64,000 bases of DNA from a bacterium (GCA_026713745.1 JAPONU010000255.1:8371-72370), one strand, 5' to 3'; positions 24,304-53,087 are shown, numbered from the stretch's first letter. The notes: a model not told the origin generated them from the letters alone. Numbers and translations: made by a program.

Positions 24304-24332
24304 ACAATAGACCACTCTCCCCCACCGAACAA
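24304..24332 (-). promoter_or_regulatory. Candidate SigA-type promoter of the mraZ/dcw operon
   Basis: The minus strand reads TTGTTC (24332-24327), a 17-nt spacer, then TATTGT (24309-24304), which fits TANNNT. It lies about 95 nt upstream of the mraZ ATG in one of the few AT-containing patches. This is prediction by eye only. Confidence 0.35.
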
Positions 24333-24429
24333 GCCAATCGGCCCACAGAGGTGGTCTCGACGAGCCGGTGGAACTCCCCAAGCAGCCGCCCGGCAAAGCC
24401 CGTGGGAGTGATGCGCCGGTCCGCCCTCC

Positions 24430-25686: not shown

Positions 25687-25947
25687 TCACATGTTGCGGG
25701 CACAGTCCCGCCTGAAGGACCGTGCCCACCTCAGCCACGCCACGACGTCGGCCCCGGTGGGCGGGCGGTCCGGATCGCCGTAGGCGGTAACCGAGCGAAG
25801 ACCCCGGTACGACGCGGACGCGGCCGCGCGCACCTGCCGCAAGGCCTCCGGCCAGAGCAGCGGGCGGCGCAGCACCGCCCAGCCCACCGCCAGGATCGGG
25901 CCACCCAACCGGCGCCGCGGGGGAATGCGACTTGTCGGGCCCACCAT
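25687..25947 (-). CDS. Small hypothetical protein (86 aa)
   Basis: The ORF has strongly G/C-biased third positions and sits at the head of the HNH/LplA-like operon, divergent from moxR. I recognise no family, so the call is weak. Confidence 0.35.
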   Translation of the reverse strand: MVGPTSRIPPRRRLGGPILAVGWAVLRRPLLWPEALRQVRAAASASYRGLRSVTAYGDPDRPPTGADVVAWLRWARSFRRDCARNM

Positions 25948-26048
25948 CGGCGTACCCTAATGGGGCACGGGAGCCCCCGTCGGGCTCGGTACCGAACCCA
26001 CCCGGACCCGTGCAGGACCGCAGGCGAGCACACACCGGATCTGCCAGA

Positions 26049-27038
26049 GTGACCAACGCCAACCCCGAGCCGCAAACCCCTGCTCCGACCCAGGGAGGCT
26101 TCGCGGCCACCTTCGAGGCCATCGCCGCCAACATCGAGCGGGTCGTCAAGGGCAAGCGCCGCCTCGTGCGGCTCCTGCTGCTGTGCCTGCTCGCCGAGGG
26201 GCACGTGCTCCTGCGCGACCCTCCCGGCGCAGGGAAAACCGTGCTCGCCAAGACAGTGGCACGCACCCTCGGTCTCGAATTCGGCCGCGTGCAGTTCACG
26301 CCGGACCTGTTGCCCAGCGACGTCGTCGGGGTGTCACTGTGGAACCCGGTTCTCAATGGCTTCGAATTCAGGCCGGGGCCGGTGTTCGCCGGGCTCCTGC
26401 TGGCCGACGAGATCAACCGCACGTCGCCCCGCACCCAGTCCGCGCTTCTCGAAGCGATGGCCGAGCGCCAAGTCACTGTGGACGGCACAACGCATGCGCT
26501 CGCCGCACCCTTCCTCGTGATCGCCACGGAGAACTCCGAGGAGATCGAAGGCACGTTCCCACTCCCCACCAGCCAGCTCGACCGCTTCCTGATGAGTCTC
26601 AGCGCAGGATTCCCGGATCGTGCCGCAGAGGCGGAGATCCTGGATTCGCATCTCACCGGGAGCCCGCTGGACTCCCTGCCCGCCGTCACCGACACAGCCT
26701 CGGTTCGGTCGATGATCGACATGGCCCGGGCCGTGCACGTCGCGCCGGCCGTGCGCGACTACCTCGTGGATCTGGCCTTCAACAGCCGCGTCCACGGCTC
26801 CATCGCCGGCGGGATGTCACCGCGCGCGGTGCTGGGCCTGCAACGCGTGGCACAGGTGAGGGCCGCCGCCTCCGGACGCAAGTTCGTCCTGCCCGACGAC
26901 GTCAAGGACGTCGCCCGACCGATCCTGATCCATCGCCTGACCTTGCACCAGAGCGCCCAATTCAACGGGATCACTCCCGCCGCAGTGATCGAGGAGATCC
27001 TGACCGACACCCCAAGCCCGCCGGTCAGCGTTCGCTGA
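26049..27038 (+). CDS. MoxR-family AAA+ ATPase
   Basis: GHVLLRDPPGAGKTVLAK (Walker A), FTPDLLPSDVVG, LLADEINRTSPRTQSALLEAMAERQVT (Walker B/sensor) and ATENSEEIEGTFPLPTSQLDRF. Start at GTG 26049. Confidence 0.92.
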   Translation: MTNANPEPQTPAPTQGGFAATFEAIAANIERVVKGKRRLVRLLLLCLLAEGHVLLRDPPGAGKTVLAKTVARTLGLEFGRVQFTPDLLPSDVVGVSLWNPVLNGFEFRPGPVFAGLLLADEINRTSPRTQSALLEAMAERQVTVDGTTHALAAPFLVIATENSEEIEGTFPLPTSQLDRFLMSLSAGFPDRAAEAEILDSHLTGSPLDSLPAVTDTASVRSMIDMARAVHVAPAVRDYLVDLAFNSRVHGSIAGGMSPRAVLGLQRVAQVRAAASGRKFVLPDDVKDVARPILIHRLTLHQSAQFNGITPAAVIEEILTDTPSPPVSVR

Positions 27039-27050
27039 TCGGACGGCCAC

Positions 27051-28187
27051 GTGACCCGGGCCGGCGTACTGGCGCTGCTCTCCGCCCTGGTGCTCGGGGC
27101 GGCGGCCTTGCTCTTCGGGCTGCCGGAGTTGTTCCTCGTGGCGGTGGTGTGCGGAGGGCTGGTGCTCCTCGCCGGCGTCGCCCTGTCCCTGCGGCCCCCG
27201 CTGCGGGCCGTTTGCAACCCGGCCCGCCGGCGCGTCGCCTGCGGCACCCCCCTGGTGGTCCATCTCCGCCTGAACAACGTGGCCCGGCGGCGCGCTGCGC
27301 CCGCGTCCGACGTCTTCGACGAGGCCTTCGACCCTCCCGGGCCCGTCCTGCGTTTGGGCCCCATGAGGTCCGGAGCGGTGGTCAACGAGCATTACCACCT
27401 CGCTACCCCCAGGCGCGGCTGGCGCACCATCGGACCTGTGTGGCTGGAGGTGGAGGACGCCTTCGGCCTGGCGCGTCGCCGCCACCGGCTGGCCCCGCGT
27501 CGCCAGGTGCTCGTGTGGCCCGAGATCGCTGAGTTGGCGGCGATTCCCGAGACCGTCGAGCACGCTACCGAACGGCGCAGGCAGGCCCGGCTCACCTCGG
27601 GCGCCGCCACCGACTTCCACAGCCTCCGGAGCTTCGAGCCCGGCGACGATCCGCATCGGATCCACTGGCCGGCGAGCACCCGCTACCAGGAACTGCTGGT
27701 GCGCCGCTTCGAGACCGTCCAGCGTCCGGAGACCTTGCTGTACCTGGACACCCACGCGACGGCCGCGAGCCCCGAGGTCTTCGAGCTGATGGTCTCGGCC
27801 GCCGCCGGGCTGGCCGTGATGGCCACCGCCGAGTCGGGATCGGTCCGGTTGCTGACGAGCAGCGGTGCCGAGGTGCGCGCCACGGGCTCTCCCACGGGCG
27901 TTCTCGACGCCCTGGCCCTCGTCGAACAGGTTCCCGCCGACGGTCCGGAGGCCGCGCGGCTGCCGGTCGGCGCGGCGCGGATGATCCTGCTGGCTGTCAT
28001 GGGCGGCAGTGTGGGCGAGTCCCCGCCGGCTCTGAATCTGTTCGAGGGGCGCCGGCTGGTCCTGAGTTTCTACCAGGACGAGCCCCCCGAGGAACACCGC
28101 GACGTCCTGGCCATCGGACCGGGCGAATCGACCGCCGAGCGCTGGGAGGAGTTCCGGACAATGCGGGCCGGCTCCGGTGGCCGATGA
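27051..28187 (+). CDS. DUF58-domain protein (MoxR partner)
   Basis: Two N-terminal TM segments, then the DUF58 core FHSLRSFEPGDDPHRIHWPASTRYQELLVRRFE. It follows moxR by 12 nt. Confidence 0.85.
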   Translation: MTRAGVLALLSALVLGAAALLFGLPELFLVAVVCGGLVLLAGVALSLRPPLRAVCNPARRRVACGTPLVVHLRLNNVARRRAAPASDVFDEAFDPPGPVLRLGPMRSGAVVNEHYHLATPRRGWRTIGPVWLEVEDAFGLARRRHRLAPRRQVLVWPEIAELAAIPETVEHATERRRQARLTSGAATDFHSLRSFEPGDDPHRIHWPASTRYQELLVRRFETVQRPETLLYLDTHATAASPEVFELMVSAAAGLAVMATAESGSVRLLTSSGAEVRATGSPTGVLDALALVEQVPADGPEAARLPVGAARMILLAVMGGSVGESPPALNLFEGRRLVLSFYQDEPPEEHRDVLAIGPGESTAERWEEFRTMRAGSGGR

Positions 28188-30490
28188 CCCGGCTACCGCA
28201 CCCGCCGGCCGGCTCACTGCCGGGAGAGCTGCTGGCGGCCGCGGTCACCTTGACCACCCTGGCAGGGGGTGTCCGCCTCTTCGACGGCACGACTTTCCTG
28301 GCCCCGGTGCTGGGGTCGGCCCTGCTTGCACACGTGCTCGTGGCTCTTGTGCGTCGTGCGGGCCGCGGCGTGGTGCTCGGCGCGCTCGTCGGGCTGGTCG
28401 GCGTGGCCGCGCTGCAGCTCTGGGTGCATTACCCGCACACGACCACCTACGGGCTTCCCCGGCGCGCCTCCCTCGAAGCGTTCACGGCGGACATCGGCGG
28501 CATCGGGGAGGTGTTGCGCTCCTCGCAGGTACCGCTCGCCACCGACACCGGCCTGATCGTCGCGGCCGCCGCAGTCGCCTGGTTGCTCGCCCTGCTGAGC
28601 GACTGGGCGGCCTTCCGCGTCGGAGCGCGCGGCGAGGCGCTGGCCCCGGCGGCGATCCTGCTGGCCGTGGTGGCGACCTTCGGAACCTCCGGGGGCGCGA
28701 TCCTCTACCCGACCATCATCGTGGCCTGCGCCGTGGCCTTCGCCCTGGTTCATGCCGCGGCACGTTCGGCGGCCCGGCCGGTCGCCGGCTCCACCGGACA
28801 TCGCCGGGCGCACATGCCCCGGGGGCTCATCACGGGAGCGCTGGCCATCGGCGCCGGCGCGCTGATTACCAGCGCGCTGGGGCCCACTCTCGCCGACGGA
28901 CCGCTGCGGAAGCTGCTGGATCCGTCGACGCCTGCGGTGGGCGAGGGTCGCACGGTCGTCCTAAGTCCGCTCGTCGCCGTACCCGGCCAGCTGCTGCGAA
29001 ACCCCGATCTGGAACTCTTCACGGTGTGGAGCTCGGAGCGCTCCTACTGGCGCCTGACCGCTCTCGGTGACTTCGACGGCGAGGTCTGGTCGCTCGATGA
29101 GACCACCCGGGCGGCCGGCGAGTCCCTACCGGCCCTCGCTGTGACGTCCGGCCCGGTACGCGAGATCACCCAGAGTTACGAGATCGGAGCGCTGGCCGCA
29201 GTCTGGCTGCCGGCGGCCTACCAGCCTGTGGAGTTCGAACCCTTGACCGCGCAGTTCGGAGCCAGCTACGAGCCGATCTCCTCGACCCTGCTCGTGGGTT
29301 CGGGGCGTTCGGACTCCGACGGCGTGGCCTACACCGTGCGATCGGCAGCGCCGAGCTTCGACCCTGCCTTTCTGGGATCGCTGCGGAACGATCCCATGGA
29401 CGTACCTCCGGGGTTCCTGGAGCTGCCGGAGGACCTGGACCCATCGCTCGCCGAGTTGGCCGCAGAGGTCACCGCCGGGCGGGACGGGCCCTACGAGCAG
29501 GGGCTCTCCCTGCAGGACTGGTTCCGGGGTGGCTTCGAGTACGACCTCGAGGTGGCCCCCGGCCATTCGGGCGACCGGCTCGAGAGCTTCCTCTTCAGCG
29601 AGCGCCGGGGATACTGCGAACAGTTCGCCGCCGCTTTCGCCACGCTGGCCAGAACCCTCGGCCTGCCGGCGCGGGTGGCGGTGGGGTTCACCCCGGGAGT
29701 GGCCGTGGACACCGGCGCTTCCGGCGACACTCTCTACAGCGTGCGCGGCCGGCAGGCCCATGCCTGGCCCGAGGTCCACATCAGCGGCGCCGGCTGGGTG
29801 GCCTTCGAGCCCACTCCGGGACGCGGCGCGCCCGGAGCCGAGGCGTACACGTTGATCCCCGAGGAGCAGGACGCGCCGCCGCAGTCCCCGGGCCCCGCGG
29901 CGACCCAACCGCCGTCGGTCGGGCCCGGATCGGGCGCTGAGCCGCCGGCGCCTCCTCCGACCGCCCCCACCCCAGGCGAATTCGCTGATGAGGGGAACGG
30001 TGTCAGCGCGGCGCGCATCGCAACACTGGTTGGATTCGCTGTGGCGGCCGTTGTGGCCGCTGCCGCCCTCTACGCGGCGGAGACCGCCGGGCTCCGCTCC
30101 CTGCAGCGCCGGCGCAGGCGCCGCTGGGCAGGCGGGGACGCCGGCCGCGGTGCGGTGGTGGCCTGGGAGGAGGTCATGGATCTGCTGCGACCCCACCGCA
30201 TCAGGCCGCGCTCCTCAGAGACACCCATCGAGGTGGCTCAGCGAGCCTCCCGGAGACTCGGCTCGGCACCGGAGCCGTGGCGACGGCTCGCCTTCTCCGT
30301 CTCGGTGGCGGCGTTCGCGGACGGTCCCATGCCAGCCGAACTCCACCGGCAGGTGGTGGCGGCGGTCGAGTTGATCACAGCGGACCTGCGGGAGTCCCGG
30401 ACACCGGTGCAGCGATTGCGGGGAATCGTCGACCCCCGTCCCTGGGAGTTGCTGCTGGGATTCGAGCGCCGGGACCGGAGTACTACCTAG
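28184..30490 (+). CDS. Transglutaminase-like membrane protein (TgpA-like)
   Basis: Multi-TM N-terminus and the transglutaminase core RRGYCEQFAAAFATLARTLGLPARVAVGF...GRQAHAWPEVHISGAGWVAFEPT (Cys-His-Asp/Glu). A Pro-rich segment and a C-terminal TM follow. ATGA overlap with the DUF58 gene. Confidence 0.85.
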   Translation: MTRLPHPPAGSLPGELLAAAVTLTTLAGGVRLFDGTTFLAPVLGSALLAHVLVALVRRAGRGVVLGALVGLVGVAALQLWVHYPHTTTYGLPRRASLEAFTADIGGIGEVLRSSQVPLATDTGLIVAAAAVAWLLALLSDWAAFRVGARGEALAPAAILLAVVATFGTSGGAILYPTIIVACAVAFALVHAAARSAARPVAGSTGHRRAHMPRGLITGALAIGAGALITSALGPTLADGPLRKLLDPSTPAVGEGRTVVLSPLVAVPGQLLRNPDLELFTVWSSERSYWRLTALGDFDGEVWSLDETTRAAGESLPALAVTSGPVREITQSYEIGALAAVWLPAAYQPVEFEPLTAQFGASYEPISSTLLVGSGRSDSDGVAYTVRSAAPSFDPAFLGSLRNDPMDVPPGFLELPEDLDPSLAELAAEVTAGRDGPYEQGLSLQDWFRGGFEYDLEVAPGHSGDRLESFLFSERRGYCEQFAAAFATLARTLGLPARVAVGFTPGVAVDTGASGDTLYSVRGRQAHAWPEVHISGAGWVAFEPTPGRGAPGAEAYTLIPEEQDAPPQSPGPAATQPPSVGPGSGAEPPAPPPTAPTPGEFADEGNGVSAARIATLVGFAVAAVVAAAALYAAETAGLRSLQRRRRRRWAGGDAGRGAVVAWEEVMDLLRPHRIRPRSSETPIEVAQRASRRLGSAPEPWRRLAFSVSVAAFADGPMPAELHRQVVAAVELITADLRESRTPVQRLRGIVDPRPWELLLGFERRDRSTT

Positions 30491-42813: not shown

Positions 42814-45800
42814 CTACCCGGAGGCCTCCGTGGCGGCGGTCAGTTCCAGCCGGGCCCGGCGCCGCTGCTCGTAGAGGCCGAGCGCGTGGAGGGGGAAGTA
42901 CTGCCGGTACAGGCCGTAGTCCAGAATCGCCGTGCGGAAGAACACCCCGGACCCGTCCTGGCGGGGCCATCCCCCATTTGACTCCTGGGCGTCCAGCAAG
43001 AACCGGGCGCCCTGGGAAATCGCCGTCCAGTTCGAATCGTCCGCTTCGAGAAGAGCGAGCATCGCCCAGGCGGTCTGGATGATCTGACTCTCGGTATGCG
43101 CCACGTATCGACCGGTCAGGCAGCCGCTGTGGTGCTCGCCCCATCCCCCGTCGGGCCGCTGGCGATCCACCAGCCACCGGCATGCCCGGCGCAGCGCCGG
43201 ATCACCGGGGCGGGCTCCGGCGGCAAGCAGACCTCTGACCCCGAAGAAGGTGCCGTAGATGAACTGAACGCCCCAGACGCCGCGCCAGGACCCATCGCTT
43301 GCCTGGCTCCGGCGGAGCCAGGCCTCGCCCCGTGAGACCGCGCTCGCGACCTCCGGATTCGCGACCTCCCCGAAGTGCTCCGTGCAAGCGGTCAACGCGG
43401 CAAGGCACGACGAGGTGCACTCGACATAGGACCTCTCGGTCATCGACTCACCGAACATCTCAGCCGGGTTCAGCCACTCGAGACCGACCGAAGAGCGCCG
43501 TGCCTCGTAGCTGCCGAACCCTCCGTCGCGGTACTGGCCGCGCAGCATGAAGCGAACCGCATCGCCGAGCACTGCGGTGTTCGCGGCGCCGCAGTCGGCG
43601 GCGAGAATTCCGAGCACCGCTTCCGCTGTGCAGTCGGTCACCGGCCAGCCATGCCAACTCCCGGCGAAACACCAGCCGCCCTTGGGGTCGGTCCGGTAGG
43701 CCTCATGGAATCCTTCGAAGCTGGTATCGATCTGTTGCCGCCCCAGGAAGTCGGTCCCGCGCCGCAGTGCGCTCCCGACGCCGTCGAGGTCCGGCACGGT
43801 CGCCAGCGCCTGCAGGGAGAACCCGGTATCCCACGAGGCGGTTCTGGCTCCGCTGACGCGCGTCCCGCCCTCCTCGTCCTCCCAGATCCAGCCGTCGAGT
43901 CGCGCCAGAGCCTGCTGGCAGTCGGTGTCATTCGGGTCGCGCAGCCACAGGGCGAGAATGTTGAGGAAGCCGCTGACCGGCGAGATGCTCCGGTGGGTGG
44001 TCGTCTGCAATTCCCACTTGATGTGCCGGACGATCGACTCGGTACATCGGGCCCGCAGACCCTCGGTGTGGAACCGTTCGTACCACAGCGCAAGCCCGAG
44101 GCCGGTTCGGAGCCACACACTGGGTCGGGCGAAGAGGTCGCCGTCCCGCAGGCGATTGCGGCCCGCCGTGAAATCCACGTTGTCGAAACCCTGAGGAAAC
44201 AACTCCTCCTGTATGGCGGCGATCGCGGGAGTGACGGGCGCTCGGAACCGGAGCGGGTAGATGGCCGCCATCGCCATGTAGATGAGCCGAGTGTGGCAGT
44301 ACCACTTCGAAGGGTGTATCGCCATCCAGCGTGGCAGGCTCCACAGTTCCGGCAGAACGGCGTTGACACCTCGCCAGTCGTAGAGGCCGACGAGCGCCAG
44401 CCAGAACTTCCCCCAACTCGGGATGCTCAGAACCCCCTCCGCCTGCAGGAATCGCCGGGCCGGTTCGATCAACGGGTCATCCGGCTCGACGCCGAGCAAT
44501 CGCGCCGCGACATAGACCAGGGTGGTGACGAACAGGTGGGGCGATGAGTGCTCGTGCAAACCCCACGAACCGTCTTCGAGGCGGGATCGCTCGAAATAGC
44601 GCAGCACGAGCCGGCGCCGGTCAGGGTCCAACGGCCGTCCCAGAATGTGGTGCAGCAGCACGTACTGCGCGGTGAGCATCGGACACCACGCCATCTCGCT
44701 TTCCCACGCACCGTCGGCACCCTGGAGACTCACCAACCGCGCGCTTGCGTTCTTCAGCGCCTTGCCGGCATCGGGTGACGCGACCTCCTCCGGGCGGCTG
44801 GGCCGGAGCTCCCCCGCTCGTGAGGGCATGGACATCAGGAACCCGCGAGCCAAGGAATCCCGAGCTCGCTGATCCTTCTGTCCGCCGGCGTTGCGCGCCC
44901 TGCGCAACTGCCGAACCCCGCGGAGAACCCACCCGACGCGCACCGACAGCGCCCGCACGATGTCGCGGGCCCGACGCCAGGCGGTTCGGTCGCAGGATCT
45001 CGGAAGCTCGCCGACCATCGCCCGGGTCGCCATCGCCCCACACGCCAGACTCAGACTGGCAATGGATGTGTTCTCACAGGCGAGCAAGCCGATGGTCCGG
45101 TCGCGGACCGTTCGACTCTCCCGCCAGCGCCGGTAGACCGCGTGCCTGAGCGCCACGCTCTCGACTCGATGATCCGCGAAGATCTCGTACAGCCCCATGG
45201 CGAGGAGTTCCGGTGCGCGGGTCGCCCGGAGTCGCCGGTTGGTGAAGTCGCGAAAGTCCCGACCCTCGGCCAGTGCGAGCGCATCACCGAAGCCGAGGGT
45301 CATTCCCACCGCCGTCAGCGGGTGGTAATGCCCGGCCGCATCCCCGATGAGCACCCGCCGTGGGCTCCCGTAGGTGGCGCGCGGCCTCAGCGCATTGGCC
45401 GCAGCGAGGAATCTCCGTGCCCGCAGGGCCTCGAGGAACGCAGGCCTGAGTGTTTCCGGCATCCAGCCGGCGTACGAATCCGACAGCAAGGCAACCAGGT
45501 CCCGCGGTGAGTACCCCAATGGGACGTCGACGATTACCCGGACCGAATCGTCTCCCAGGCGATAGATGAGAATCGGACCCGGCCCGCCGCAGACGACATG
45601 CCCATAGCCCTCCATCGGCAACGTCACCCCGCTCAGTGCGATCCCCATCATCCGCGAGCAGTTTTTCGGACTCGTCCACAGGCCCAATGAGCGCCGCACG
45701 ATCGAGGCGCGGCCGTCCGCGCCGACAATCAGCGCGGCCTCCAGGGATTCGTCGGCACCGTGACGGGTGAACGTGACACGATGTTCTTCGACCGCCCGCA

Positions 45801-46188
45801 CACGCGCATGCAGCACGAAGTCGACTCCCGGCTCCTCCTCGGCGGCTTCACGCAGGCGCGAGACCAGCGTCTCGTGTTCGCATACCAAGCCGAGAGATCC
45901 GTCCGGGTACGGAAGCACGATCGGCTCCGACCGGTCTTCGGGAAACACCGCAAATCCCTTGCCGGCGGCGCTCCGCGGCTGCGAATCGAGCTCGATCCCG
46001 AAGTCCCGGAGTGTGCGCAGAGCGGGGGGATGGAGCCACTCGCCGGCGAGTCGTTTGGAGACATTGGGGTTTGCCTCGAGCAGAGCCACCGAGGCGCCCC
46101 GACGAGCGTGAGCGAGCGCGCACAAGCTGCCTACCGGACCCGCGCCGACGACCACGAGGTCATAACTCTGGGCGGTGGCGCCGCTCAT
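42814..46188 (-). CDS. Fusion protein: squalene monooxygenase-like FAD enzyme (N-terminal) plus oxidosqualene-cyclase-type triterpene cyclase (C-terminal)
   Basis: One continuous ORF. N-terminal part: YDLVVVGAGPVGS, GEWLHPPAL and GDAAGHYHPLTAVGMTLGFGD (squalene-epoxidase-like). C-terminal part: at least 6 QW-type repeats and GWPVTDCTAEAV (OSC V(S/T)DCTAE, not the SHC DxDDTA). ATG 46188 (MSGATAQSYDL) is preferred; the ORF maximum is 46233. Confidence 0.85.
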   Translation of the reverse strand: MSGATAQSYDLVVVGAGPVGSLCALAHARRGASVALLEANPNVSKRLAGEWLHPPALRTLRDFGIELDSQPRSAAGKGFAVFPEDRSEPIVLPYPDGSLGLVCEHETLVSRLREAAEEEPGVDFVLHARVRAVEEHRVTFTRHGADESLEAALIVGADGRASIVRRSLGLWTSPKNCSRMMGIALSGVTLPMEGYGHVVCGGPGPILIYRLGDDSVRVIVDVPLGYSPRDLVALLSDSYAGWMPETLRPAFLEALRARRFLAAANALRPRATYGSPRRVLIGDAAGHYHPLTAVGMTLGFGDALALAEGRDFRDFTNRRLRATRAPELLAMGLYEIFADHRVESVALRHAVYRRWRESRTVRDRTIGLLACENTSIASLSLACGAMATRAMVGELPRSCDRTAWRRARDIVRALSVRVGWVLRGVRQLRRARNAGGQKDQRARDSLARGFLMSMPSRAGELRPSRPEEVASPDAGKALKNASARLVSLQGADGAWESEMAWCPMLTAQYVLLHHILGRPLDPDRRRLVLRYFERSRLEDGSWGLHEHSSPHLFVTTLVYVAARLLGVEPDDPLIEPARRFLQAEGVLSIPSWGKFWLALVGLYDWRGVNAVLPELWSLPRWMAIHPSKWYCHTRLIYMAMAAIYPLRFRAPVTPAIAAIQEELFPQGFDNVDFTAGRNRLRDGDLFARPSVWLRTGLGLALWYERFHTEGLRARCTESIVRHIKWELQTTTHRSISPVSGFLNILALWLRDPNDTDCQQALARLDGWIWEDEEGGTRVSGARTASWDTGFSLQALATVPDLDGVGSALRRGTDFLGRQQIDTSFEGFHEAYRTDPKGGWCFAGSWHGWPVTDCTAEAVLGILAADCGAANTAVLGDAVRFMLRGQYRDGGFGSYEARRSSVGLEWLNPAEMFGESMTERSYVECTSSCLAALTACTEHFGEVANPEVASAVSRGEAWLRRSQASDGSWRGVWGVQFIYGTFFGVRGLLAAGARPGDPALRRACRWLVDRQRPDGGWGEHHSGCLTGRYVAHTESQIIQTAWAMLALLEADDSNWTAISQGARFLLDAQESNGGWPRQDGSGVFFRTAILDYGLYRQYFPLHALGLYEQRRRARLELTAATEASG

Positions 46189-46457
46189 CGGTGGATGCCC
46201 CCCTGCGAGCGCCGGCGACACCGGAACCAACACGGTTCCTGAGGACCGGTCACCCGGCTACCGTACTTCGGGTTGGGAGAGCGGTCATTCTCCGGAACCG
46301 CAGACGTACGTGAGCCTCGCCCGACGCTCCGCTCGGCTGCTCGACCCCCTCGCCCGGGCCCGGCTGCGATCCGTCGGCGGTGCCGGTGCCGGCGAATGGT
46401 TCCGCCGCGGAGAATCGAAGTGGCGCAGCGCTCCTCGTCGGCGAATCGGCCGGGGTA

Positions 46458-47546
46458 TCAGCGACCGTCGGCGAGGCGGCGGGACACCTCCACCCAACGG
46501 GACAGCTTGACCGCCGCCGCTCCGCTGTCGAGTGCCTCCGCCGCCAGCCGCAGCCCCCCGGGGAGGTCGGCGGCCAGATCACCCACGACGAGCCCCGCGG
46601 CGGCGTTCAGGCACACGATGTCCCGCCATGGCACCGACTTGCCCGCCAGCAGCGCCTGAGTCGCCGCCACCCCGGTGGCCAGGTCCGCGCCCGCGAGATC
46701 GGCCAGCCCGACGGTGGCCAGGCCCAGATCCTCCGGCGTCACGGTATAGCGCTCGATCCGCCCCCCGCGCAGCTCGATCACTATCGTCGGGCCGATCGTG
46801 GACAGCTCGTCGAGGCGAGGATAGCCGTGCACCACCATGGCCCGTTGGGTACCGGTAACGGCCAGCACCTCCGCCATCCGCTCGGCCATGGTGGGGTCGT
46901 TCACACCGATCACCTGGCGCCGCACGCCGGCGGGATTCGCCATCGGACCGAGGTAGTTGAACGCCGTGGGTACACCCAGGCTGCGCCGCGCGGGACCGGC
47001 GTGGCGCAGTGCCGGATGGAACAGGGGCGCCAGGCAGAAAGCGATACCGGCCTGCTCGAGGCTGGCGGCAACGCCTTCGGGCCCCAGGTCCACCACCACG
47101 CCCAGGGCCTCCAGCAGGTCGGCGGATCCGCAGGCCGACGACACCGCACGGTTGCCGTGCTTGCAGACGCGGGCACCGGCGCCCGCGGCCACGAGCGCCG
47201 CCATGGTGGAGATATTCAGCGAGCCGCTGCCGTCGCCGCCAGTGCCGGCGGTGTCGATCAGTCCCATCGCCTCGGCATCCACGCCGACCTCCAGCGCCGC
47301 GGCCCGCAAGCCCTCGAGCAGCCCGGCCAACTCGGCAGCCGTCTCACCCTTGGTGCGCAGGCCGATCAGCAGCCCCGCCATCTGTGCCTCGGTGGCACGG
47401 CCGGTCAGCATGGCGTCAGCCGCGGCCCGGGCCTGGACCCCTGACAGGTGCTCGCCCGCCACCAGCGTCCTGAACAACTCGGCGAAATCGACACCCTCTC
47501 CGGTGCCTGTGCCCGTCACGCCGGCGGCGTCGCTGTCTGTACTCAT
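46458..47546 (-). CDS. trpD: Anthranilate phosphoribosyltransferase
   Basis: DTAGTGGDGSGSLNISTMAA, KHGNRAVSSACGSADLLEALG, and the FHPA..H.GP.RR and PTAFN regions. ATG 47546; the remaining 472 codons of ORF 46458..48962 are antisense to the kinase gene and are rejected. Confidence 0.93.
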   Translation of the reverse strand: MSTDSDAAGVTGTGTGEGVDFAELFRTLVAGEHLSGVQARAAADAMLTGRATEAQMAGLLIGLRTKGETAAELAGLLEGLRAAALEVGVDAEAMGLIDTAGTGGDGSGSLNISTMAALVAAGAGARVCKHGNRAVSSACGSADLLEALGVVVDLGPEGVAASLEQAGIAFCLAPLFHPALRHAGPARRSLGVPTAFNYLGPMANPAGVRRQVIGVNDPTMAERMAEVLAVTGTQRAMVVHGYPRLDELSTIGPTIVIELRGGRIERYTVTPEDLGLATVGLADLAGADLATGVAATQALLAGKSVPWRDIVCLNAAAGLVVGDLAADLPGGLRLAAEALDSGAAAVKLSRWVEVSRRLADGR

Positions 47547-47735
47547 GCTGCAGCCTCGATCGTTCGATGTCGGTGGGCGGCCCGCTGCGACGGTGACCGC
47601 CGCGGTCATCCCGGCCGCCGCCGGACCTACCTCTAGCATGCCAACCGTGCCCACCTGTGACGAGCCCGGTGCCCCGCCGCCGACCGCGGTGACGGCGGCC
47701 GGCCGGGATCCGCATCGACCGGACCCGACGGCGCC

Positions 47736-49172
47736 ATGAGGATTCTCGTGATCGACCTGGGGAGCACGAGCGCCCGCGCGGCCGTTGTGGACGAGGCGGG
47801 TCACCTCCGCCACGAGCGGCGCGCGGCCACGCCGCGGGAATCCCCGGCGCCCGGACTGCTGGAGTTCGACCCGGTCGCGGTGGCCGATGCGGCCATGCAG
47901 GCCGCCACGGCGACGCTGACCGAGGCGGGAAGGGTGGACGCCGTCGGCATCGCCAACCAGCGTGCCTCCACGGTCGTCTGGGATCGCACCAGCGGCGAAC
48001 CGGCCGGTCCTGGACTCGGCTGGCAGGACCTTCGTACCGCCCTCGACTGCCTCACCCTGCAGGGCGAGGGACTGCGCCTGGCGCCGAACCAACCCGCCAC
48101 CAAGGCCGCCCACCTGATCGGCGCGGCCGGCGTCCCGCCCACCCAGCTCTGCGTGGGCACGCTGGACTCGTGGCTCGTCTGGAATCTCACCGGCGGGACC
48201 CACCACCTCACCGACGCCACCAACGCGGCGATCACCGGACTCTGCTTCGACGATCGCGTTGAGTGGGACCTGGCTGTTGCCGGGAGGCTCGGCATCCCCG
48301 CGGTGAGCCTGCCCCGCATCGTCGACAGCACCGGACCGGTGGCCGAGGCCACCGAACTGCGGGGAGCTCCCGTCATCGCCGGTCTCGCCGGTGACCAGCA
48401 GGCGGCGCTCGTGGGCGCCGGCTGCGTCGGGCGGGGCGCCGTGAAGATCACCTTCGGCACCGGAGGCACGCTGGACGCCTGCCTCGGCCCCGGCGACCCG
48501 CCGACCGATGTCCGCGGCCCCAGTGGCACCTTCCCGATCGTCTCCTGGCAACAGCAGGGACGGGTGGTCTGGGGGATCGAAGCCATGATGCTCAGCGCCG
48601 GCAGCTGTGTGGCGTGGTTGTGCGAGCTCGGGCTGCTCGAGAACCCCGGTGATTCCGACGCCGTCGCCGCCGCCTGCGCCGACAGTGGGGGCGTGAGCTT
48701 CGTGCCCGCTCAGATGGGCCTCGGTACACCGGACTGGGACTTCGGGGCTCGCAGCACCTTCACCGGCCTCACCGCCACCGCCGGCACCGGACACCTTGTG
48801 CGCGCCGTGCTGGAAGGCGTGGCGCACCACGGGGTCGATCTGCTCGAAGCGGCGCGCGCCGACAGCGGGCTGGAGTTGGCCGGCCCGGTCATCGACGGGG
48901 GCATGAGCACCAACGGCACGTTCATCCAGGCGCTCGCCGACGCCTCCGGAGGCGTGGTGCACCTCGCTCCCGAGATCGAATGCACAGCCCTCGGCGCCGG
49001 CTACCTCGCGGGGCTTGGAGTCGGATCCTGGCGTGACTGGGAGGAGGTCGCCTCACTGCGACCGCCGCGGCGGACCGTCGAGCCGCACAAGCTCGCCGAC
49101 CGGGCCGCATGGCAGGAGGCCAAGCGGCGAGCCGCCAGCTGGCACCCCGACCTCAGCGCCGTCTCGTTCTGA
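47736..49172 (+). CDS. FGGY-family carbohydrate kinase (glycerol kinase-like)
   Basis: ILVIDLGSTSARAAVVD, GIANQRASTVVWD, GTLDSWLVWNLTGG, AGDQQAALVG, TFGTGG and IDGGMSTN. Confidence 0.85.
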   Translation: MRILVIDLGSTSARAAVVDEAGHLRHERRAATPRESPAPGLLEFDPVAVADAAMQAATATLTEAGRVDAVGIANQRASTVVWDRTSGEPAGPGLGWQDLRTALDCLTLQGEGLRLAPNQPATKAAHLIGAAGVPPTQLCVGTLDSWLVWNLTGGTHHLTDATNAAITGLCFDDRVEWDLAVAGRLGIPAVSLPRIVDSTGPVAEATELRGAPVIAGLAGDQQAALVGAGCVGRGAVKITFGTGGTLDACLGPGDPPTDVRGPSGTFPIVSWQQQGRVVWGIEAMMLSAGSCVAWLCELGLLENPGDSDAVAAACADSGGVSFVPAQMGLGTPDWDFGARSTFTGLTATAGTGHLVRAVLEGVAHHGVDLLEAARADSGLELAGPVIDGGMSTNGTFIQALADASGGVVHLAPEIECTALGAGYLAGLGVGSWRDWEEVASLRPPRRTVEPHKLADRAAWQEAKRRAASWHPDLSAVSF

Positions 49173-51204: not shown

Positions 51205-51352
51205 GGACGGACCTCAACGGGTATACACTTGAAGTCGCGACCAAGTCGTCCTTCGGAGGGGATGGCGGGTCTGGAGAGAATCTCGCTGATCCCGGCTGCT
51301 CCAACAGTCCCAGGCCCGCTCCCTCCACCACAGCCTGCTTCGACGGATCCGG

Positions 51353-51427
51353 TGGGCGCTGGCGGACTCGAACCGCCGACCCCTTCCTTGTAAGGGAAGT
51401 GCTCTGAACCAACTGAGCTAAGCGCCC
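51353..51427 (-). tRNA. tRNA-Val (anticodon TAC)
   Basis: Reverse complement: GGGCGCTTAGCTCAGTTGGTTCAGAGCACTTCCCTTACAAGGAAGGGGTCGGCGGTTCGAGTCCGCCAGCGCCCA. It folds as a cloverleaf with anticodon loop CTTACAA. The terminal CCA is not fully encoded. Confidence 0.93.
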
Positions 51428-51438
51428 GGAACCGCAGA

Positions 51439-52182
51439 CTACCCGGCACAGGCCGCGCACAGGTCGCCCAGCAGGCCCTCCCCGGCCGCCGCCAGCAAGC
51501 TGCGGCGAGCCCCCGGATCGGTCGTCGTGAGATCCCTGCCGGCGGCGTCGACCACGTGGGCGCCGGCCTCCCGGCAGACCAGCATGGCCCCCAGGTAGTC
51601 CCACGGTCCGTGCGAGTGGCAGTCCACGAAGCCGTCGAGGCGCCCGTCGGCCACCGCGCACAGATCCAGCGCGGCCGCGCCGAGGGCTCGGTACTGGCGC
51701 CAGCGCAGGTGTCGTGACGGGTAGCCGGACAGACCGATGACCGCCTCGGGCAGGCTGCCGACCTGCGATGGCCGTATCGGCCGGCGGTCCCGGTAGGCCC
51801 CACCACCGCGGATCGCGCTGTAGCGCTCGCCGGAAGCCAGGTTGACCACCAGCGCGGCCAGCGCCCCGGAGTCGTCGACCGCGCAGAAACTCGTGGCGTA
51901 CCAGGGGATGCCCTGAGCCGCGTTCGTTGATCCGTCGAGTGGGTCGACGACGACGATCACGGCACGATCGGTGCCCTGCAGGCCGGACTCCTCGCTGCAC
52001 ACCCCCAGGCCGGCGTCGAGCAGCGCTCCGGTCGCCACCTCGTCGGCGGCGATGTCGGAACGGTGCTGGCCGGGACGCGTCCCCGCCAAACCCCAGTCAG
52101 CCAGAGACTCCAGAGCAGCCGCCACCGAGCGGGCGGTCTCCTCGAACAGCGACAGCAGGTCCTCGGGCGCGATGAGTGTCAC
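51439..52182 (-). CDS. Inositol monophosphatase/FBPase-family phosphatase (second paralog in the window)
   Basis: VVDPLDGSTNAAQG and PWDYLGAMLVCREAG are IMPase-family motifs. GTG 52182 (VTLIAPEDLL) is preferred; the ORF maximum is 52317. Confidence 0.8.
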   Translation of the reverse strand: MTLIAPEDLLSLFEETARSVAAALESLADWGLAGTRPGQHRSDIAADEVATGALLDAGLGVCSEESGLQGTDRAVIVVVDPLDGSTNAAQGIPWYATSFCAVDDSGALAALVVNLASGERYSAIRGGGAYRDRRPIRPSQVGSLPEAVIGLSGYPSRHLRWRQYRALGAAALDLCAVADGRLDGFVDCHSHGPWDYLGAMLVCREAGAHVVDAAGRDLTTTDPGARRSLLAAAGEGLLGDLCAACAG

Positions 52183-52276
52183 GCTAGGTCGACTCTCGGC
52201 ACTCAGGTCGACATCGCCGACGGGTAGGGTGGTTCCGCCCCGACACCAGTGACCCCGAACGCGGAGGAGCCGTCCA

Positions 52277-52840
52277 TTGTCCGTCGTTGACTTTCCCGGG
52301 TTCGTCACCGATCTCAAGTTCCACGCCGCTGACGGGGGGTTCCACTACCACGAGGATCATCACTGCATCGACGTCACCACCGGACGGCAATGGTGGGAGA
52401 TCCATCTCCACCCGGATTACGACTGCGACGGGCCCCTGGAGCTGCACATCGTCGCCGACTTGGACCCGCGGGTACAGATCGCATTCGAGGACGAGGTGAA
52501 CAAGCTGCCCGACGACGCCGAGTGGCCCGAGGAAGGGTTCGACCTGCTGCTTCGTTTCCACTGGCGGATGCCGCCGCTGCCGAACAGCCCCAACCTCCTG
52601 GAGTTGGCCACCGAACTCTCCGCCATCGGCGGCACGGCGCTGCCCCTGCACGTCTGGGCGGCGGACACCATCGCCACGGTCACCGACGATGTCGCCAGGT
52701 CGGTGCACGTGGAGTCGGAGCGGTCGGTCCCGCTGGCGCATCTGGTTGGCGAGCACGATTTTCTGGACGAGACGTTCGGCCTGATCGGGAGCGTCACCCG
52801 CTACCTGCACGACCGGGCACCCGCCTGGCTGGGCGAGTGA
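52277..52840 (+). CDS. Hypothetical acidic, His-rich protein of unknown family
   Basis: TTG start 7 nt after a strong GGAGGA. 187 aa with a realistic composition (FHYHEDHHCIDV, WWEIHLHPDYDCDG, acidic middle). It lacks the Arg/Pro/Gly excess that off-frame ORFs show here. I recognise no family. Confidence 0.6.
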   Translation: MSVVDFPGFVTDLKFHAADGGFHYHEDHHCIDVTTGRQWWEIHLHPDYDCDGPLELHIVADLDPRVQIAFEDEVNKLPDDAEWPEEGFDLLLRFHWRMPPLPNSPNLLELATELSAIGGTALPLHVWAADTIATVTDDVARSVHVESERSVPLAHLVGEHDFLDETFGLIGSVTRYLHDRAPAWLGE

Positions 52841-52884
52841 GCCTGCCCGGAGCGGTCGCACAGCGGGACTCGCGCCCCTGAGAG

Positions 52885-52957
52885 TGGGCTCGGTGGGGAT
52901 CGAACCCACGACCAAACGATTATGAGTCGTCTGCTCTGACCACTGAGCTACGAGCCC
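52885..52957 (-). tRNA. tRNA-Met (anticodon CAT), elongator type (a tRNA-Ile2/lysidine identity cannot be excluded)
   Basis: Reverse complement: GGGCTCGTAGCTCAGTGGTCAGAGCAGACGACTCATAATCGTTTGGTCGTGGGTTCGATCCCCACCGAGCCCA. The first acceptor pair is G:C (Watson-Crick, 1:72) and the anticodon stem has no GGG/CCC, so it is not an initiator. Confidence 0.9.
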
Positions 52958-53014
52958 GGCGAAAACCTAGCCCCCGGGTGATGCCGCGCCGCGTGTCGCG
53001 GGCTGTTCCGGCAG

Positions 53015-53087
53015 CTCCGGGGGTGGGGCTCGAACCCACGACAAACGGCTTAACAGGCCGGCGCTCTGCCAACTGAGCTACCCCGGA
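53015..53087 (-). tRNA. tRNA-Asn (anticodon GTT)
   Basis: Reverse complement: TCCGGGGTAGCTCAGTTGGCAGAGCGCCGGCCTGTTAAGCCGTTTGTCGTGGGTTCGAGCCCCACCCCCGGAG. Anticodon loop CTGTTAA. Confidence 0.9.

What the first reader, a model, noticed from the sequence alone, without database searches (positions are those of the whole stretch)
42814..46188. Single-polypeptide fusion of squalene monooxygenase and an oxidosqualene-type cyclase (candidate bacterial sterol/tetracyclic triterpenoid synthase)
**The ORF.** It is uninterrupted on the minus strand, 1124 codons from ATG 46188 or 1139 from 46233.

**N-terminal ~440 aa.** This part has the FAD fingerprint DLVVVGAGPVGS. It also has GEWLHPPAL (compare GELLQPGG of squalene epoxidases) and GDAAGHYHPLTAVGMTLGFGD (compare the HPLTGGGMT signature of Erg1-type enzymes).

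**Linker.** An Arg/Ser-rich linker of about 40 aa follows, encoded at roughly 44750-44870.

**C-terminal ~650 aa.** This part is a class II triterpene cyclase with at least six QW-like repeats. These are QGADGAWESE, RLEDGSWGLH, QYRDGGFGSYE, SQASDGSWRGVWG, RQRPDGGWGEH and AQESNGGWPRQ. The catalytic-acid motif is GWPVTDCTAEAV, which is the V(S/T)DCTAE of oxidosqualene cyclases and not the DxDDTA of squalene-hopene cyclases.

**Why it stands out.** The two O2-dependent steps squalene -> 2,3-oxidosqualene -> tetracyclic product would sit on one protein. In the bacteria known to make sterols these are separate, usually adjacent genes, and OSC genes are rare in bacteria. The positions that separate cycloartenol from lanosterol synthases (plant H477/I481, human C449/V453) read H and V here (WHGWPVTDC). 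That is a mixed signature, so the product (lanosterol, cycloartenol, parkeol or arborinol-type) cannot be predicted. No squalene synthase, CYP51 or C4-demethylation genes are in the window, and the neighbours are queG and trpD. I cannot tell from the sequence alone whether this architecture has already been catalogued.
Basis: partly seen in the sequence, partly recalled or inferred. Interest (0 to 1): 0.85.

Follow-up and report, generated by a model that had tools for sequence, protein, structure and literature searches.

The report
Fused squalene epoxidase–sterol cyclase gene
This is a real single gene that joins the two oxygen-dependent first steps of sterol synthesis. The fusion was already described in 2020 in sponge-symbiont bacteria, so this is a new, stand-alone copy of a known kind and not a discovery.

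Summary
Window 42814-46188 (minus strand) is one uninterrupted 1124-codon gene. The N-terminal ~450 aa match squalene monooxygenase (Pfam SE; best solved relative human SQLE, 4e-27). The C-terminal ~635 aa match oxidosqualene cyclase (human lanosterol synthase, 1e-129; VTDCTAE present, no DxDD).

It is not an assembly artefact. The identical protein is on two independent assemblies. A genome scan found 371 related stretches, and the 80 examined are all full-length fusions.

The architecture is not new. Mohanty et al. [quoted passage not shown] Brown et al. 2023 mention "fused SMO/OSC homologs". Kelly et al. 2022 described horizontally spread steroid gene clusters in sponge symbionts of 10 phyla.

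The window copy belongs to this family (66-95% identity). Its closest relatives are Acidimicrobiia genomes that are collinear with it.

In most other lineages the gene ends an sdmB-sdmA-ERG24-CYP51 cassette. Here it stands alone in housekeeping DNA between trpD and a queG-like gene.

Both halves are under purifying selection (dN/dS about 0.2). The invariant Val at human position 453 predicts lanosterol.

No biochemical test of any fused member was found. Verdict: new member of a known kind, modest interest.

The parts
42814..46188 (-). Complete fused gene: 1124 codons plus stop at 42814-42816. An alternative GTG start at 46233 would add 15 codons.
   Evidence: The 100% identical protein P0001 was called as 1124 aa on two independent assemblies.
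44827..46188 (-). Squalene monooxygenase (epoxidase) half, aa 1-454. It comprises the FAD-binding Rossmann fold, the SE domain, and two long Arg-rich C-terminal helices (aa ~401-451).
   Evidence: Pfam SE PF08491 at aa 151-371 (4.8e-23) and FAD_binding_3 at aa 10-307. The best solved relative is human squalene monooxygenase 6C6N, 4e-27. Helices are from the AF2 model. The naturally separate 477-aa homologue aligns to aa 1-464.
46129..46146 (-). FAD dinucleotide-binding GxGxxG (G15-A-G17-P-V-G20).
   Evidence: G15, G17 and G20 are invariant in 68 family members.
45283..45345 (-). GD...HPLT(A/G)xGMT motif of Erg1-type epoxidases (aa 282-302).
   Evidence: It aligns to human SQLE 'GDAYNMRHPLTGGGMTVAF'. 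G282, D283, H289 and P290 are invariant.
44764..44826 (-). Flexible inter-domain linker, aa ~455-475 (PSRAGELRPSRPEEVASPDAG).
   Evidence: pLDDT is below 50 at aa 447-474. The consensus is variable here. The split homologue L081 has its stop, a 5-nt gap and a new start at this position.
42859..44763 (-). Oxidosqualene cyclase half, aa 476-1110 (two alpha/alpha barrel domains).
   Evidence: SQHop_cyclase_N at aa 479-772 and SQHop_cyclase_C at aa 786-1107. TIGR01787 scores 504 bits, above its cut-off. Human lanosterol synthase 1W6K matches at 1.2e-129 over aa 480-1109.
43621..43641 (-). Catalytic-acid motif V850-T-D852-C-T-A-E856. Val850 corresponds to human V453, the lanosterol-versus-cycloartenol indicator.
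   Evidence: H846, V850 and D852-A857 are invariant in the family. The V453 rule is from PMC4919349.
41580..42770 (-). Downstream neighbour, queG-like 4Fe-4S protein, same strand, 44 bp after the stop. It is not part of the sterol function.
   Evidence: Fer4_16 4.7e-17. The same neighbour is present in the collinear Acidimicrobiia loci.
46458..47546 (-). Upstream neighbour trpD (anthranilate phosphoribosyltransferase), same strand, about 270 bp before the start. It is not part of the sterol function. The start coordinate is approximate.
   Evidence: Glycos_transf_3 4e-79 and Glycos_trans_3N. It was called as 362 aa on the source contig.

Best explanation
**What it is.** The gene encodes a bifunctional, membrane-surface enzyme of the MsbE type.

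**Proposed mechanism (inferred, not shown).**
- The N-terminal FAD-dependent monooxygenase half uses O2, with electrons from an unidentified partner, to convert squalene to (3S)-2,3-oxidosqualene.
- A ~20-aa flexible linker tethers it to a C-terminal oxidosqualene cyclase.
- In the cyclase, Asp852 (human D455), polarised by Cys853 and Cys924, protonates the epoxide and drives cyclisation to the protosteryl cation.
- Deprotonation most likely gives lanosterol, because the residue at human position 453 is Val.

**What fusion would achieve (inferred).**
- It fixes a 1:1 ratio of the two activities.
- It keeps the greasy intermediate at one membrane patch.
- It makes 'squalene to protosterol' a single transferable gene.

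**Origin.**
- The window copy sits in a sponge-associated Acidimicrobiia chromosome.
- It was acquired horizontally as part of the pool of sterol genes shared among sponge symbionts of many phyla.
- It is kept under purifying selection as a stand-alone gene, without the usual sdmB-sdmA-ERG24-CYP51 partners next to it.

**Shown versus inferred.**
- Shown: domain identities, conserved catalytic residues, family distribution, genomic context and selection.
- Inferred: both enzymatic activities, the product, channelling and the electron donor.
For: **Domain identity**
- Pfam SE, FAD_binding_3 and both cyclase domains match.
- TIGR01787 scores above its cut-off, and osq_cycl (720 bits) far exceeds hopene_cyclase (261 bits).
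- The best solved relatives are human lanosterol synthase (1e-129) and human squalene monooxygenase (4e-27).

**Catalytic residues**
- D852, C853, C924, H632 and Y894 are present, and there is no DxDD.
- These residues and the FAD motifs are invariant across 68 homologues.

**The fusion is real**
- The identical protein is on two independent assemblies.
- The 80 best genome loci are all full-length fusions, several of them on records titled as chromosomes.
- The two halves have co-evolved: pairwise-distance correlation r = 0.81.

**Sterol role of the family**
- In 63 of 80 loci CYP51 lies directly upstream of the fusion, mostly within the full sdmB-sdmA-ERG24-CYP51 cassette, with a sterol methyltransferase nearby in most.
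- The same cassette was published as msbA-F (PMC7074536).
- Sterol methyltransferases from sponge-symbiont sterol gene clusters are active in vitro (PMC10070321).

**Lanosterol prediction**
- The V453 rule held among the bacterial cyclases tested in PMC4919349.

**Function retained in this lineage**
- dN/dS is 0.17-0.24 in both halves against six collinear relatives.

**Horizontal origin**
- Identity is 66-77% across different phyla.
- Gene GC is pulled towards about 0.65 whatever the host GC.
- Transposases lie next to the lone gene in L051 and L052.
- Kelly et al. also inferred horizontal transfer.
Against: **No biochemical test.**
- No member of the fused family has been assayed, as far as the held literature shows.

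**Two epoxidase residues differ from human.**
- From my recollection of the 6C6N structure paper, human Gln168 and Tyr195 line the inhibitor and substrate site. I did not read that paper here.
- In this protein they are His53 and Phe79.
- These residues are invariant in the family and shared with stand-alone bacterial relatives, so they look like a bacterial-type signature and not decay.

**Below one curated cut-off.**
- The cyclase scores below NCBIfam's trusted cut-off for osq_cycl (720 against 851 bits).

**Pathway partners not seen.**
- No squalene synthase (SQS or HpnCDE), reductase partner or downstream sterol gene is in the 64 kb.
- No cassette-type CYP51 was seen on the large contigs that carry Acidimicrobiia copies. 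This is a weak negative.
- The substrate source and the fate of the product in this organism are therefore unknown.

**Fusion is not required.**
- A close homologue exists as two separate genes.

**No structural support for channelling.**
- The AF2 model is too poor (pTM 0.46) to say anything about channelling geometry.
Confidence: 0.75

Rival explanations
1. The protein is bifunctional as proposed, but the cyclase makes something other than lanosterol, such as cycloartenol, parkeol, an arborane-type alcohol or a product mixture.
For: - Position 449 is His, as in cycloartenol synthases.
- Position 381 is Ala, which is neither the lanosterol-type Thr nor the cycloartenol-type Tyr.
- The osq_cycl model score is below its cut-off.
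- From my own knowledge, not checked here: some bacterial cyclases give parkeol (Gemmata) or arborinols (Eudoraea).
Against: - Val at 453 correlated completely with lanosterol among the bacterial cyclases tested (PMC4919349).
- It is invariant in this family.
- Most family members sit next to CYP51 and ERG24. I infer that this context fits a lanosterol-type protosterol.
- MsbE was annotated as a lanosterol cyclase on the same residue.
Confidence: 0.15
2. Only the cyclase half is active. The N-terminal flavoprotein half is inactive or acts on another substrate, such as a quinone or another prenyl lipid, as UbiH-type hydroxylases do.
For: - NCBIfam lists only UbiH/UbiF/COQ6-type and geranylgeranyl-reductase models for the N-terminal half, all below their cut-offs.
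- Human SQLE Gln168 and Tyr195 are replaced by His and Phe.
- No electron donor is encoded nearby.
Against: - The Pfam squalene-epoxidase domain scores 82 bits against a 20-bit cut-off.
- Human SQLE is the best solved relative by about 19 orders of magnitude over the next flavoprotein.
- The half is under purifying selection (omega about 0.15-0.23).
- It co-evolves with the cyclase.
- In the split relative, the separate epoxidase gene sits immediately before the cyclase gene, after sdmB, sdmA and CYP51.
Confidence: 0.06
3. In this Acidimicrobiia lineage the gene is a functionless passenger: a recently transferred remnant of the sponge-symbiont cassette with no substrate and no pathway partners.
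For: - No SQS/HpnCDE, CYP51, ERG24, sdmAB or SMT lies in the 64 kb or within 10 kb in collinear relatives.
- Its synonymous divergence is unusually low, which suggests recent movement.
Against: - The ORF is intact in every relative.
- All catalytic residues are invariant.
- dN/dS of about 0.2 is similar to neighbouring housekeeping genes.
- The gene occupies the same chromosomal slot in at least seven diverged genomes.
- Protosterol-only bacteria are known: Cystobacterineae keep only SQMO and OSC (PMC8237579).
Confidence: 0.04
4. The single ORF is an assembly chimera, or hides a sequencing error that removed a stop between two adjacent genes.
For: A close relative really does have two adjacent genes separated by TAG plus 5 nt at the linker.
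Against: - The identical 1124-aa protein is on two independent assemblies.
- More than 120 protein clusters (90% identity) show the fused length.
- The 80 best genome loci, several of them on records titled as chromosomes, show the same fused ORF.
- Reading-frame GC3 is continuous across the gene.
Confidence: 0.01

Closest known systems
[quoted passage not shown] 2020, PMC7074536)
   Same: - The architecture is the same: N-terminal epoxidase, C-terminal cyclase with the diagnostic Val.
- The window protein is 66-72% identical to gammaproteobacterial members of this family sitting in the same sdmB-sdmA-ERG24-CYP51-fusion-SMT cassette.
   Different: - The window copy is in an Acidimicrobiia genome.
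- It stands alone between trpD and a queG-like gene, with no cassette within 64 kb.
- The MsbE sequence itself (MT026193.1) was not available to me, so identity to MsbE proper was not measured.
- Neither protein has been assayed.
The 'LSS/ERG7' gene of the clusters of steroid genes (ERG24-CYP51-LSS) in Ircinia sponge symbiont genomes (Kelly et al. 2022, PMC9531527)
   Same: - This is apparently the same gene family. Their LSS alignment is 3765 nt, which is the fused size.
- It was found in 10 phyla including Acidimicrobiia.
- Horizontal transfer and strong purifying selection (omega 0.17) were reported there.
- I find omega 0.17-0.24 and a comparable spread of phyla.
   Different: - In the passages I read, they describe the gene inside the three-gene cluster, name it lanosterol synthase, and do not mention the fusion.
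- All 11 Acidimicrobiia copies among my 80 loci that have at least 5 kb of upstream sequence lack the cluster. Three more have too little upstream sequence to tell.
Separate, adjacent squalene monooxygenase and oxidosqualene cyclase genes of sterol-producing bacteria (Methylococcus, Gemmata, myxobacteria)
   Same: - The two enzyme families and the gene order are the same.
- A split relative, L081, has SQMO (477 aa) followed after 5 nt by OSC (666 aa). These are 60% and 74% identical to the two halves of the window protein.
   Different: - Here the stop and restart are absent, so one polypeptide is made.
- In a rough neighbour-joining tree the fused forms cluster together within one bacterial cyclase sub-clade, with a few stand-alone proteins interspersed.
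Human lanosterol synthase (PDB 1W6K) and human squalene monooxygenase (PDB 6C6N)
   Same: - They are the best solved-structure relatives of the two halves (1e-129 and 4e-27).
- The catalytic Asp-Cys pair, Cys533, His232 and Tyr503 equivalents are conserved.
- The FAD motifs are conserved.
   Different: - In eukaryotes they are separate proteins.
- Positions 381 and 449 of the cyclase differ (Ala and His).
- Positions 168 and 195 of the epoxidase differ (His and Phe).

Membership tests
Oxidosqualene cyclase (class II triterpene cyclase, OSC branch) | Two alpha/alpha-barrel cyclase domains. | tested here: met
   PF13249 4e-53 and PF13243 8e-51. TIGR01787 scores 504 bits against a 322.7 cut-off.
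Oxidosqualene cyclase (class II triterpene cyclase, OSC branch) | Catalytic acid in V-x-D-C-T-A-E, not the DxDD of squalene-hopene cyclases. | tested here: met
   VTDCTAE at aa 850-856. No DxDD in the cyclase half. The motif is invariant in 68 homologues.
Oxidosqualene cyclase (class II triterpene cyclase, OSC branch) | Scores above the curated cut-off of the OSC-specific model TIGR03463. | tested here: not met
   The score is 720 bits against a cut-off of 851. It is still the best-scoring model, and far above hopene_cyclase at 261 bits.
Oxidosqualene cyclase (class II triterpene cyclase, OSC branch) | Closer to characterised OSCs than to SHCs. | tested here: met
   Human lanosterol synthase matches at 1.2e-129 and a plant terpene cyclase at 2.6e-113, against A. 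acidocaldarius SHC at 1e-52.
Oxidosqualene cyclase (class II triterpene cyclase, OSC branch) | Cyclises 2,3-oxidosqualene to a tetracyclic protosterol. | not testable with these tools
   This needs expression and lipid analysis.
Squalene monooxygenase (Erg1/SQLE type) | Pfam squalene-epoxidase domain plus the FAD motifs GxGxxG, DG and GD. | tested here: met
   PF08491 scores 82 bits against a 20.1 cut-off. G15/G17/G20, D158-G159 and G282-D283 are invariant.
Squalene monooxygenase (Erg1/SQLE type) | Closest solved relative is a squalene monooxygenase and not a UbiH-type or other group-A flavoprotein. | tested here: met
   6C6N matches at 4e-27. The next hits (PqsL-like, VisC) are at 2e-8 or worse.
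Squalene monooxygenase (Erg1/SQLE type) | Human active-site residues Gln168 and Tyr195 conserved. | tested here: not met
   They are His53 and Phe79 here. These are invariant in the family and shared with stand-alone bacterial relatives. The residues may not be defining for bacterial enzymes, and their role in the human enzyme is from my memory of the structure paper.
Squalene monooxygenase (Erg1/SQLE type) | Epoxidises squalene. | not testable with these tools
   This needs an enzyme assay, and the electron donor is unknown.
MsbE-type fused SQMO-OSC of sponge symbionts | Both domains in one ORF in the order SQMO-linker-OSC, with high identity to family members. | tested here: met
   The protein is 66-95% identical over the full length to the 80 best genome loci. 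The whole family falls in one 50%-identity cluster.
MsbE-type fused SQMO-OSC of sponge symbionts | Last gene of the sdmB-sdmA-ERG24-CYP51 cassette, with SMT nearby. | tested here: not met
   tblastn with all five cassette proteins found nothing in the 64-kb window or in the collinear loci L001-L007. Context is not a property of the protein, so this marks a variant context, not exclusion from the family.

The most novel reading that the evidence does not exclude
**Proposed reading.**
- In sponge-associated Acidimicrobiia the fused gene acts as a self-contained, single-gene 'squalene to lanosterol' module.
- It is still being exchanged among co-resident symbiont lineages. Its synonymous divergence is about half that of the surrounding chromosome.
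- These bacteria would make only the protosterol and pass it to the host or to neighbouring symbionts that carry the CYP51, ERG24, SdmAB and SMT steps.
- Sponge sterol synthesis, including biomarker-relevant sterols, would then be partly a community-level, divided pathway.
Probability: 0.15. Interest if true: 0.6.

Novelty: new member of a known kind. Interest (0 to 1): 0.3.

Why it matters
**Biomarker debate.**
- Bacterial sterol synthesis in sponge microbiomes bears on how 24-isopropylcholestane and other steranes are read as animal or eukaryote biomarkers.
- The fused epoxidase-cyclase is the entry enzyme of that bacterial pathway.
- It has spread across more than ten phyla.

**What this copy adds.**
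- The fused gene also persists alone, under selection, in core chromosomal DNA of Acidimicrobiia symbionts.
- This suggests that protosterol production by itself is useful there, or that the pathway is shared between organisms.

**Enzymology.**
- No fused member was found to have been assayed.
- A natural one-gene route from squalene to lanosterol would be a convenient tool and a test case for substrate channelling between two monotopic membrane enzymes.

**Limit.** None of this is a new discovery at the level of the architecture.

Tried and rejected
1. **AlphaFold2 model of the full protein** from a 68-sequence alignment.
   - Mean pLDDT was 67.5 and pTM 0.46.
   - It was good enough to delimit the disordered linker, but too poor for domain packing or channel geometry.
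   - No fold search was run and no channelling claim rests on it.
2. **Regex search for squalene-synthase motifs** in the window and loci. It was uninformative and was replaced by Pfam scans of about 40 window ORFs, which found only housekeeping genes.
3. **Test for CYP51 elsewhere in the Acidimicrobiia genomes**, by matching 'longest contig' lengths of CYP51 homologues to those of the fusion-bearing contigs.
   - Several non-Acidimicrobiia contigs matched; no Acidimicrobiia contig did.
   - Only the top 120 of 1267 hits are listed, so this is a weak negative.
4. **Promoter/terminator scan**, **repeat search around the gene** and **tRNA scan**. They gave no promoter, terminator, flanking repeats or adjacent tRNA, so there is no visible insertion scar.
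5. **Literature searches** for a biochemical characterisation of a fused enzyme. None was found. The held library does not cover most subscription journals.
6. **The listing of cluster members on distant fusion clusters**. It gave almost no names or taxa.
I considered it and set it aside in favour of the empirically supported V453 rule. A non-lanosterol product is kept as a rival.

Full report
**1. The observation**

Window 42814..46233 (minus strand) is a single open frame: 1139 codons from GTG 46233, or 1124 from ATG 46188.

The frame is not one of the long shadow ORFs that 70%-GC DNA produces. Pfam gives:
- SE (squalene epoxidase), aa 151-371, 4.8e-23
- FAD_binding_3, aa 10-307, 9e-20
- SQHop_cyclase_N, aa 479-772, 4e-53
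- SQHop_cyclase_C, aa 786-1107, 8.5e-51

ATG 46188 is the likely start. Homologues begin at the same Met, and two independent gene calls give 1124 aa. A G-rich stretch, which I read as Shine-Dalgarno-like, lies upstream.

**2. What the two halves are**

*Cyclase half*
- Against solved structures, aa 480-1109 match human lanosterol synthase (1W6K) at 1.2e-129 and a plant terpene cyclase at 2.6e-113. The squalene-hopene cyclase of Alicyclobacillus scores only 1e-52.
- NCBIfam ranks osq_cycl first at 720 bits. This is below its strict cut-off of 851.
- The general squalene/oxidosqualene cyclase model scores above its cut-off (504 against 323). hopene_cyclase reaches only 261 bits.
- Mapping through the HMMER alignment to 1W6K, the residues I recall as catalytically important in the human enzyme are all present:

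| Human residue | Residue here |
|---|---|
| D455 | D852 |
| C456 | C853 |
| C533 | C924 |
| H232 | H632 |
| Y503 | Y894 |

- No DxDD motif is present in the cyclase half.

*Epoxidase half*
- Aa 9-303 match human squalene monooxygenase (6C6N) at 4e-27. The next flavoproteins (PqsL-like, VisC) are at 2e-8 or worse.
- GxGxxG, DG and GD motifs are present and invariant.
- Two positions that I recall as lining the human active site differ here: Gln168 is His53 and Tyr195 is Phe79.
- Both are invariant in the family and shared with stand-alone bacterial relatives. I read them as a bacterial-type signature and flag them as an uncertainty.

*Linker*
- The AlphaFold2 model is of modest quality (pLDDT 67.5, pTM 0.46). 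It places two long helices at aa 401-451 and a disordered stretch at aa 447-474.
- A natural split homologue breaks at aa ~464-476.
- The real linker is therefore about 20 aa (aa ~455-475, window 44764-44826).

**3. Not an artefact**

- The identical 1124-aa protein is encoded on two independently assembled contigs from different ENA assemblies.
- A search of 5.8 billion proteins lists more than 120 clusters, 116 of them 1107-1181 aa long, at 69-100% identity over at least 96% of the query. Four shorter ones (1090-1092 aa) are also full-length fusions.
- A scan of GTDB genomes found 371 related stretches. The best 80 are all full-length fusions, several of them on records titled as chromosomes.
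- Pairwise distances of the two halves correlate (r = 0.81) across 81 sequences, so the halves have travelled together. The epoxidase half evolves faster: mean distance 0.35 against 0.22.

**4. Where it belongs**

*Distribution*
- The 80 loci come from metagenome-assembled genomes labelled:
  - Acidimicrobiia
  - Binatia
  - Nitrospirales
  - Thermodesulfobacteriota
  - Bryobacterales
  - Vicinamibacterales
  - Alpha- and Gammaproteobacteria
  - Opitutales
  - Nitrospinaceae
  - Chloroflexota
  - Longimicrobiales
- Several names point to sponge microbiomes, for example Spongia_Bin9, Poriferihabitaceae and Porisulfidus. I did not verify the source of every bin.
- Identity across these phyla is still 66-77%.
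- A neighbour-joining tree groups sequences mostly by class, with several cross-class placements. All Acidimicrobiia copies fall in one clade next to Acidobacteriota copies.
- Gene GC is pulled towards about 0.65 in all hosts. It is below the local GC in the high-GC Acidimicrobiia relatives and above it in the low-GC Nitrospirales and Gammaproteobacteria. The window gene is 0.677 against a window mean of 0.700. This fits horizontal spread with incomplete amelioration.

*The window's own lineage*
- Loci L001-L007, all Acidimicrobiia, are collinear with the window across 23 kb at 76-87% nucleotide identity, except L005, whose upstream half does not align. The gene sits in the same slot in each of them.
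- The window is therefore a sponge-type Acidimicrobiia chromosome segment.
- Its other genes are core housekeeping: ileS, the ftsZ-mraZ division and cell-wall cluster, dinB, PFK, trpD, a sigma-70 factor, dnaG and recO.

**5. Genomic context**

- In 63 of 80 loci CYP51 lies directly upstream of the fusion.
  - In most of these the full cassette is present, and a sterol C-24 methyltransferase lies nearby.
  - The cassette order is sdmB-like NAD-dependent dehydrogenase, sdmA-like Rieske oxygenase, ERG24 sterol C-14 reductase, CYP51, then the fusion.
- The window lacks all five cassette proteins: there is no tblastn hit in 64 kb.
- The same is true of:
  - all 11 Acidimicrobiia loci that have at least 5 kb of upstream sequence (three more have too little upstream sequence to tell);
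  - one Syntrophobacterales locus, one Alphaproteobacteria locus and one Rariloculaceae locus.
- In the last two, a transposase lies next to the lone gene (IS481 family in L051, YhgA-like in L052). In the second Acidimicrobiia sub-clade the neighbours are unrelated genes.
- No promoter, terminator, flanking repeat or adjacent tRNA marks an insertion in the window.

**6. Is the lone copy alive?**

- Against six collinear relatives, dN/dS is 0.17-0.24 for the whole gene and similar for each half.
  - This lies within the range of the neighbouring genes overall (0.04-0.32).
  - It is close to queG and the GT4 glycosyltransferase, and higher than trpD at 0.06-0.11.
- All catalytic residues are intact, so it is not a decaying passenger.
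- Whether the organism makes squalene, or processes lanosterol further, could not be tested.
  - The only indirect probe found no cassette-type CYP51 on the large contigs that carry Acidimicrobiia copies. This probe matched contig lengths among the top 120 CYP51 homologues.
  - It did find CYP51 on several non-Acidimicrobiia fusion contigs. This is a weak negative.

**7. Mechanism (inferred)**

1. Squalene plus O2 is converted to 2,3-oxidosqualene by the FAD half. The electron donor is unknown, since no reductase domain or neighbouring reductase gene is present.
2. The intermediate is handed over at the membrane surface to the cyclase half.
3. Asp852 protonates the epoxide, and cyclisation and rearrangement follow.
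4. Deprotonation gives lanosterol.

The lanosterol call rests on Val850 (human V453).
- Wei et al. 2016 found that Val against Ile at this position correlated completely with lanosterol against cycloartenol among the bacteria they tested (PMC4919349).
- Val850 and His846 are invariant in the family.
- His at position 449 is shared with all close bacterial relatives.

Fusion is not obligatory. L081 carries a close relative as two genes, SQMO of 477 aa and OSC of 666 aa, separated by TAG plus 5 nt exactly at the linker. They sit in the order sdmB-sdmA-CYP51-SQMO-OSC.

The likely benefits of fusion are stoichiometry, co-localisation and transfer as one gene.

**8. Comparison with what is known**

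The architecture is published.
- Mohanty et al. [quoted passage not shown] It lies within msbA-F of a Melophlus symbiont. That gene order is the same as the cassette I see (PMC7074536).
- Kelly et al. 2022 describe ERG24-CYP51-LSS clusters in 115 of 537 Ircinia symbiont genomes from 10 phyla, including Acidimicrobiia.
  - Their LSS alignment is 3765 nt, which is the fused size.
  - They infer horizontal transfer and report omega 0.17 (PMC9531527).
- Brown et al. [quoted passage not shown]
- The main text of Hoshino and Gaucher 2021 does not mention the fusion.
- I found no biochemical test of any fused member.

Beyond the sponge family:
- The sponge family collapses into one 50%-identity cluster.
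- At least eight more distant clusters of fusion length exist at 39-51% identity, plus about a dozen weaker candidates.
- In a rough tree of the cyclase half, the fused forms sit together in one bacterial sub-clade, with two stand-alone proteins interspersed. This suggests one old fusion with occasional fission. The tree is only indicative.

**9. Verdict**

The novelty it hoped for is not there.
- This is a new member of a known kind. The modest twists are the Acidimicrobiia host, the stand-alone context in core chromosomal DNA, and signs of recent exchange (see noticed in passing).
- Interest is about 0.3.

Noticed in passing
window 42814-46188 compared with 32814-56233; loci L001-L004, L006, L007: The fusion gene has the lowest synonymous divergence of 14-17 syntenic genes in five of six comparisons. 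dS is 0.39-0.43 against a median of 0.75-0.81 (L002, L003, L004, L007), and 0.10 against 0.54 for L006. trpD is also low against L001 and L006. This suggests a recent recombination tract or allelic exchange of the gene among related symbionts.
   Followed up: partly
L081 6001-9440 (ENA ERZ24894576 ctg49556l): This is a natural split version of the fusion. SQMO (477 aa) ends with TAG, and after 5 nt a GTG starts the OSC (666 aa). The gene order is sdmB-orf82-sdmA-CYP51-SQMO-OSC, without ERG24. The 477-aa form recurs in 13 cluster members on many contigs, so it is not a sequencing error.
   Followed up: partly
L051 13442-14326; L052 13910-15127: Transposase genes lie directly beside lone copies of the fused gene: IS481 family in an alphaproteobacterial genome and YhgA-like in a Rariloculaceae genome. 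This fits movement of the gene on its own.
   Followed up: no
window 12892-24396 (minus strand): A complete division and cell-wall (dcw) cluster is present in canonical order: mraZ, mraW, a PBP transpeptidase, murF-like, mraY, murD-like, ftsW, murG and murC. ftsZ lies a little further on at 9920-11095. This confirms that the window is core chromosome.
   Followed up: no
window 25932-30490 (plus strand): A MoxR-type AAA ATPase, a DUF58 protein and a transglutaminase-like membrane protein (TgpA type) form a three-gene set. Its function was not examined.
   Followed up: no
window 46458-48962 (minus) and 47736-49172 (plus): The 834-codon minus-strand ORF is mostly a shadow frame. Only its last ~360 codons are trpD. 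The opposite strand over its upstream part encodes an FGGY-family sugar kinase. This shows how misleading long ORFs are in this 70%-GC DNA.
   Followed up: yes
window 51351-53087 (minus strand): Three tRNA genes (Val-TAC, Met-CAT, Asn-GTT) lie about 5-7 kb from the fusion gene. They are not adjacent to it, and no integrase is nearby.
   Followed up: no
L008, L010-L012, L023 (Binatia and Thermodesulfobacteriota loci): In these loci sdmB and sdmA are not upstream of ERG24-CYP51-fusion. They lie downstream on the opposite strand, beyond the methyltransferase, so the cassette has been rearranged in this clade.
   Followed up: no
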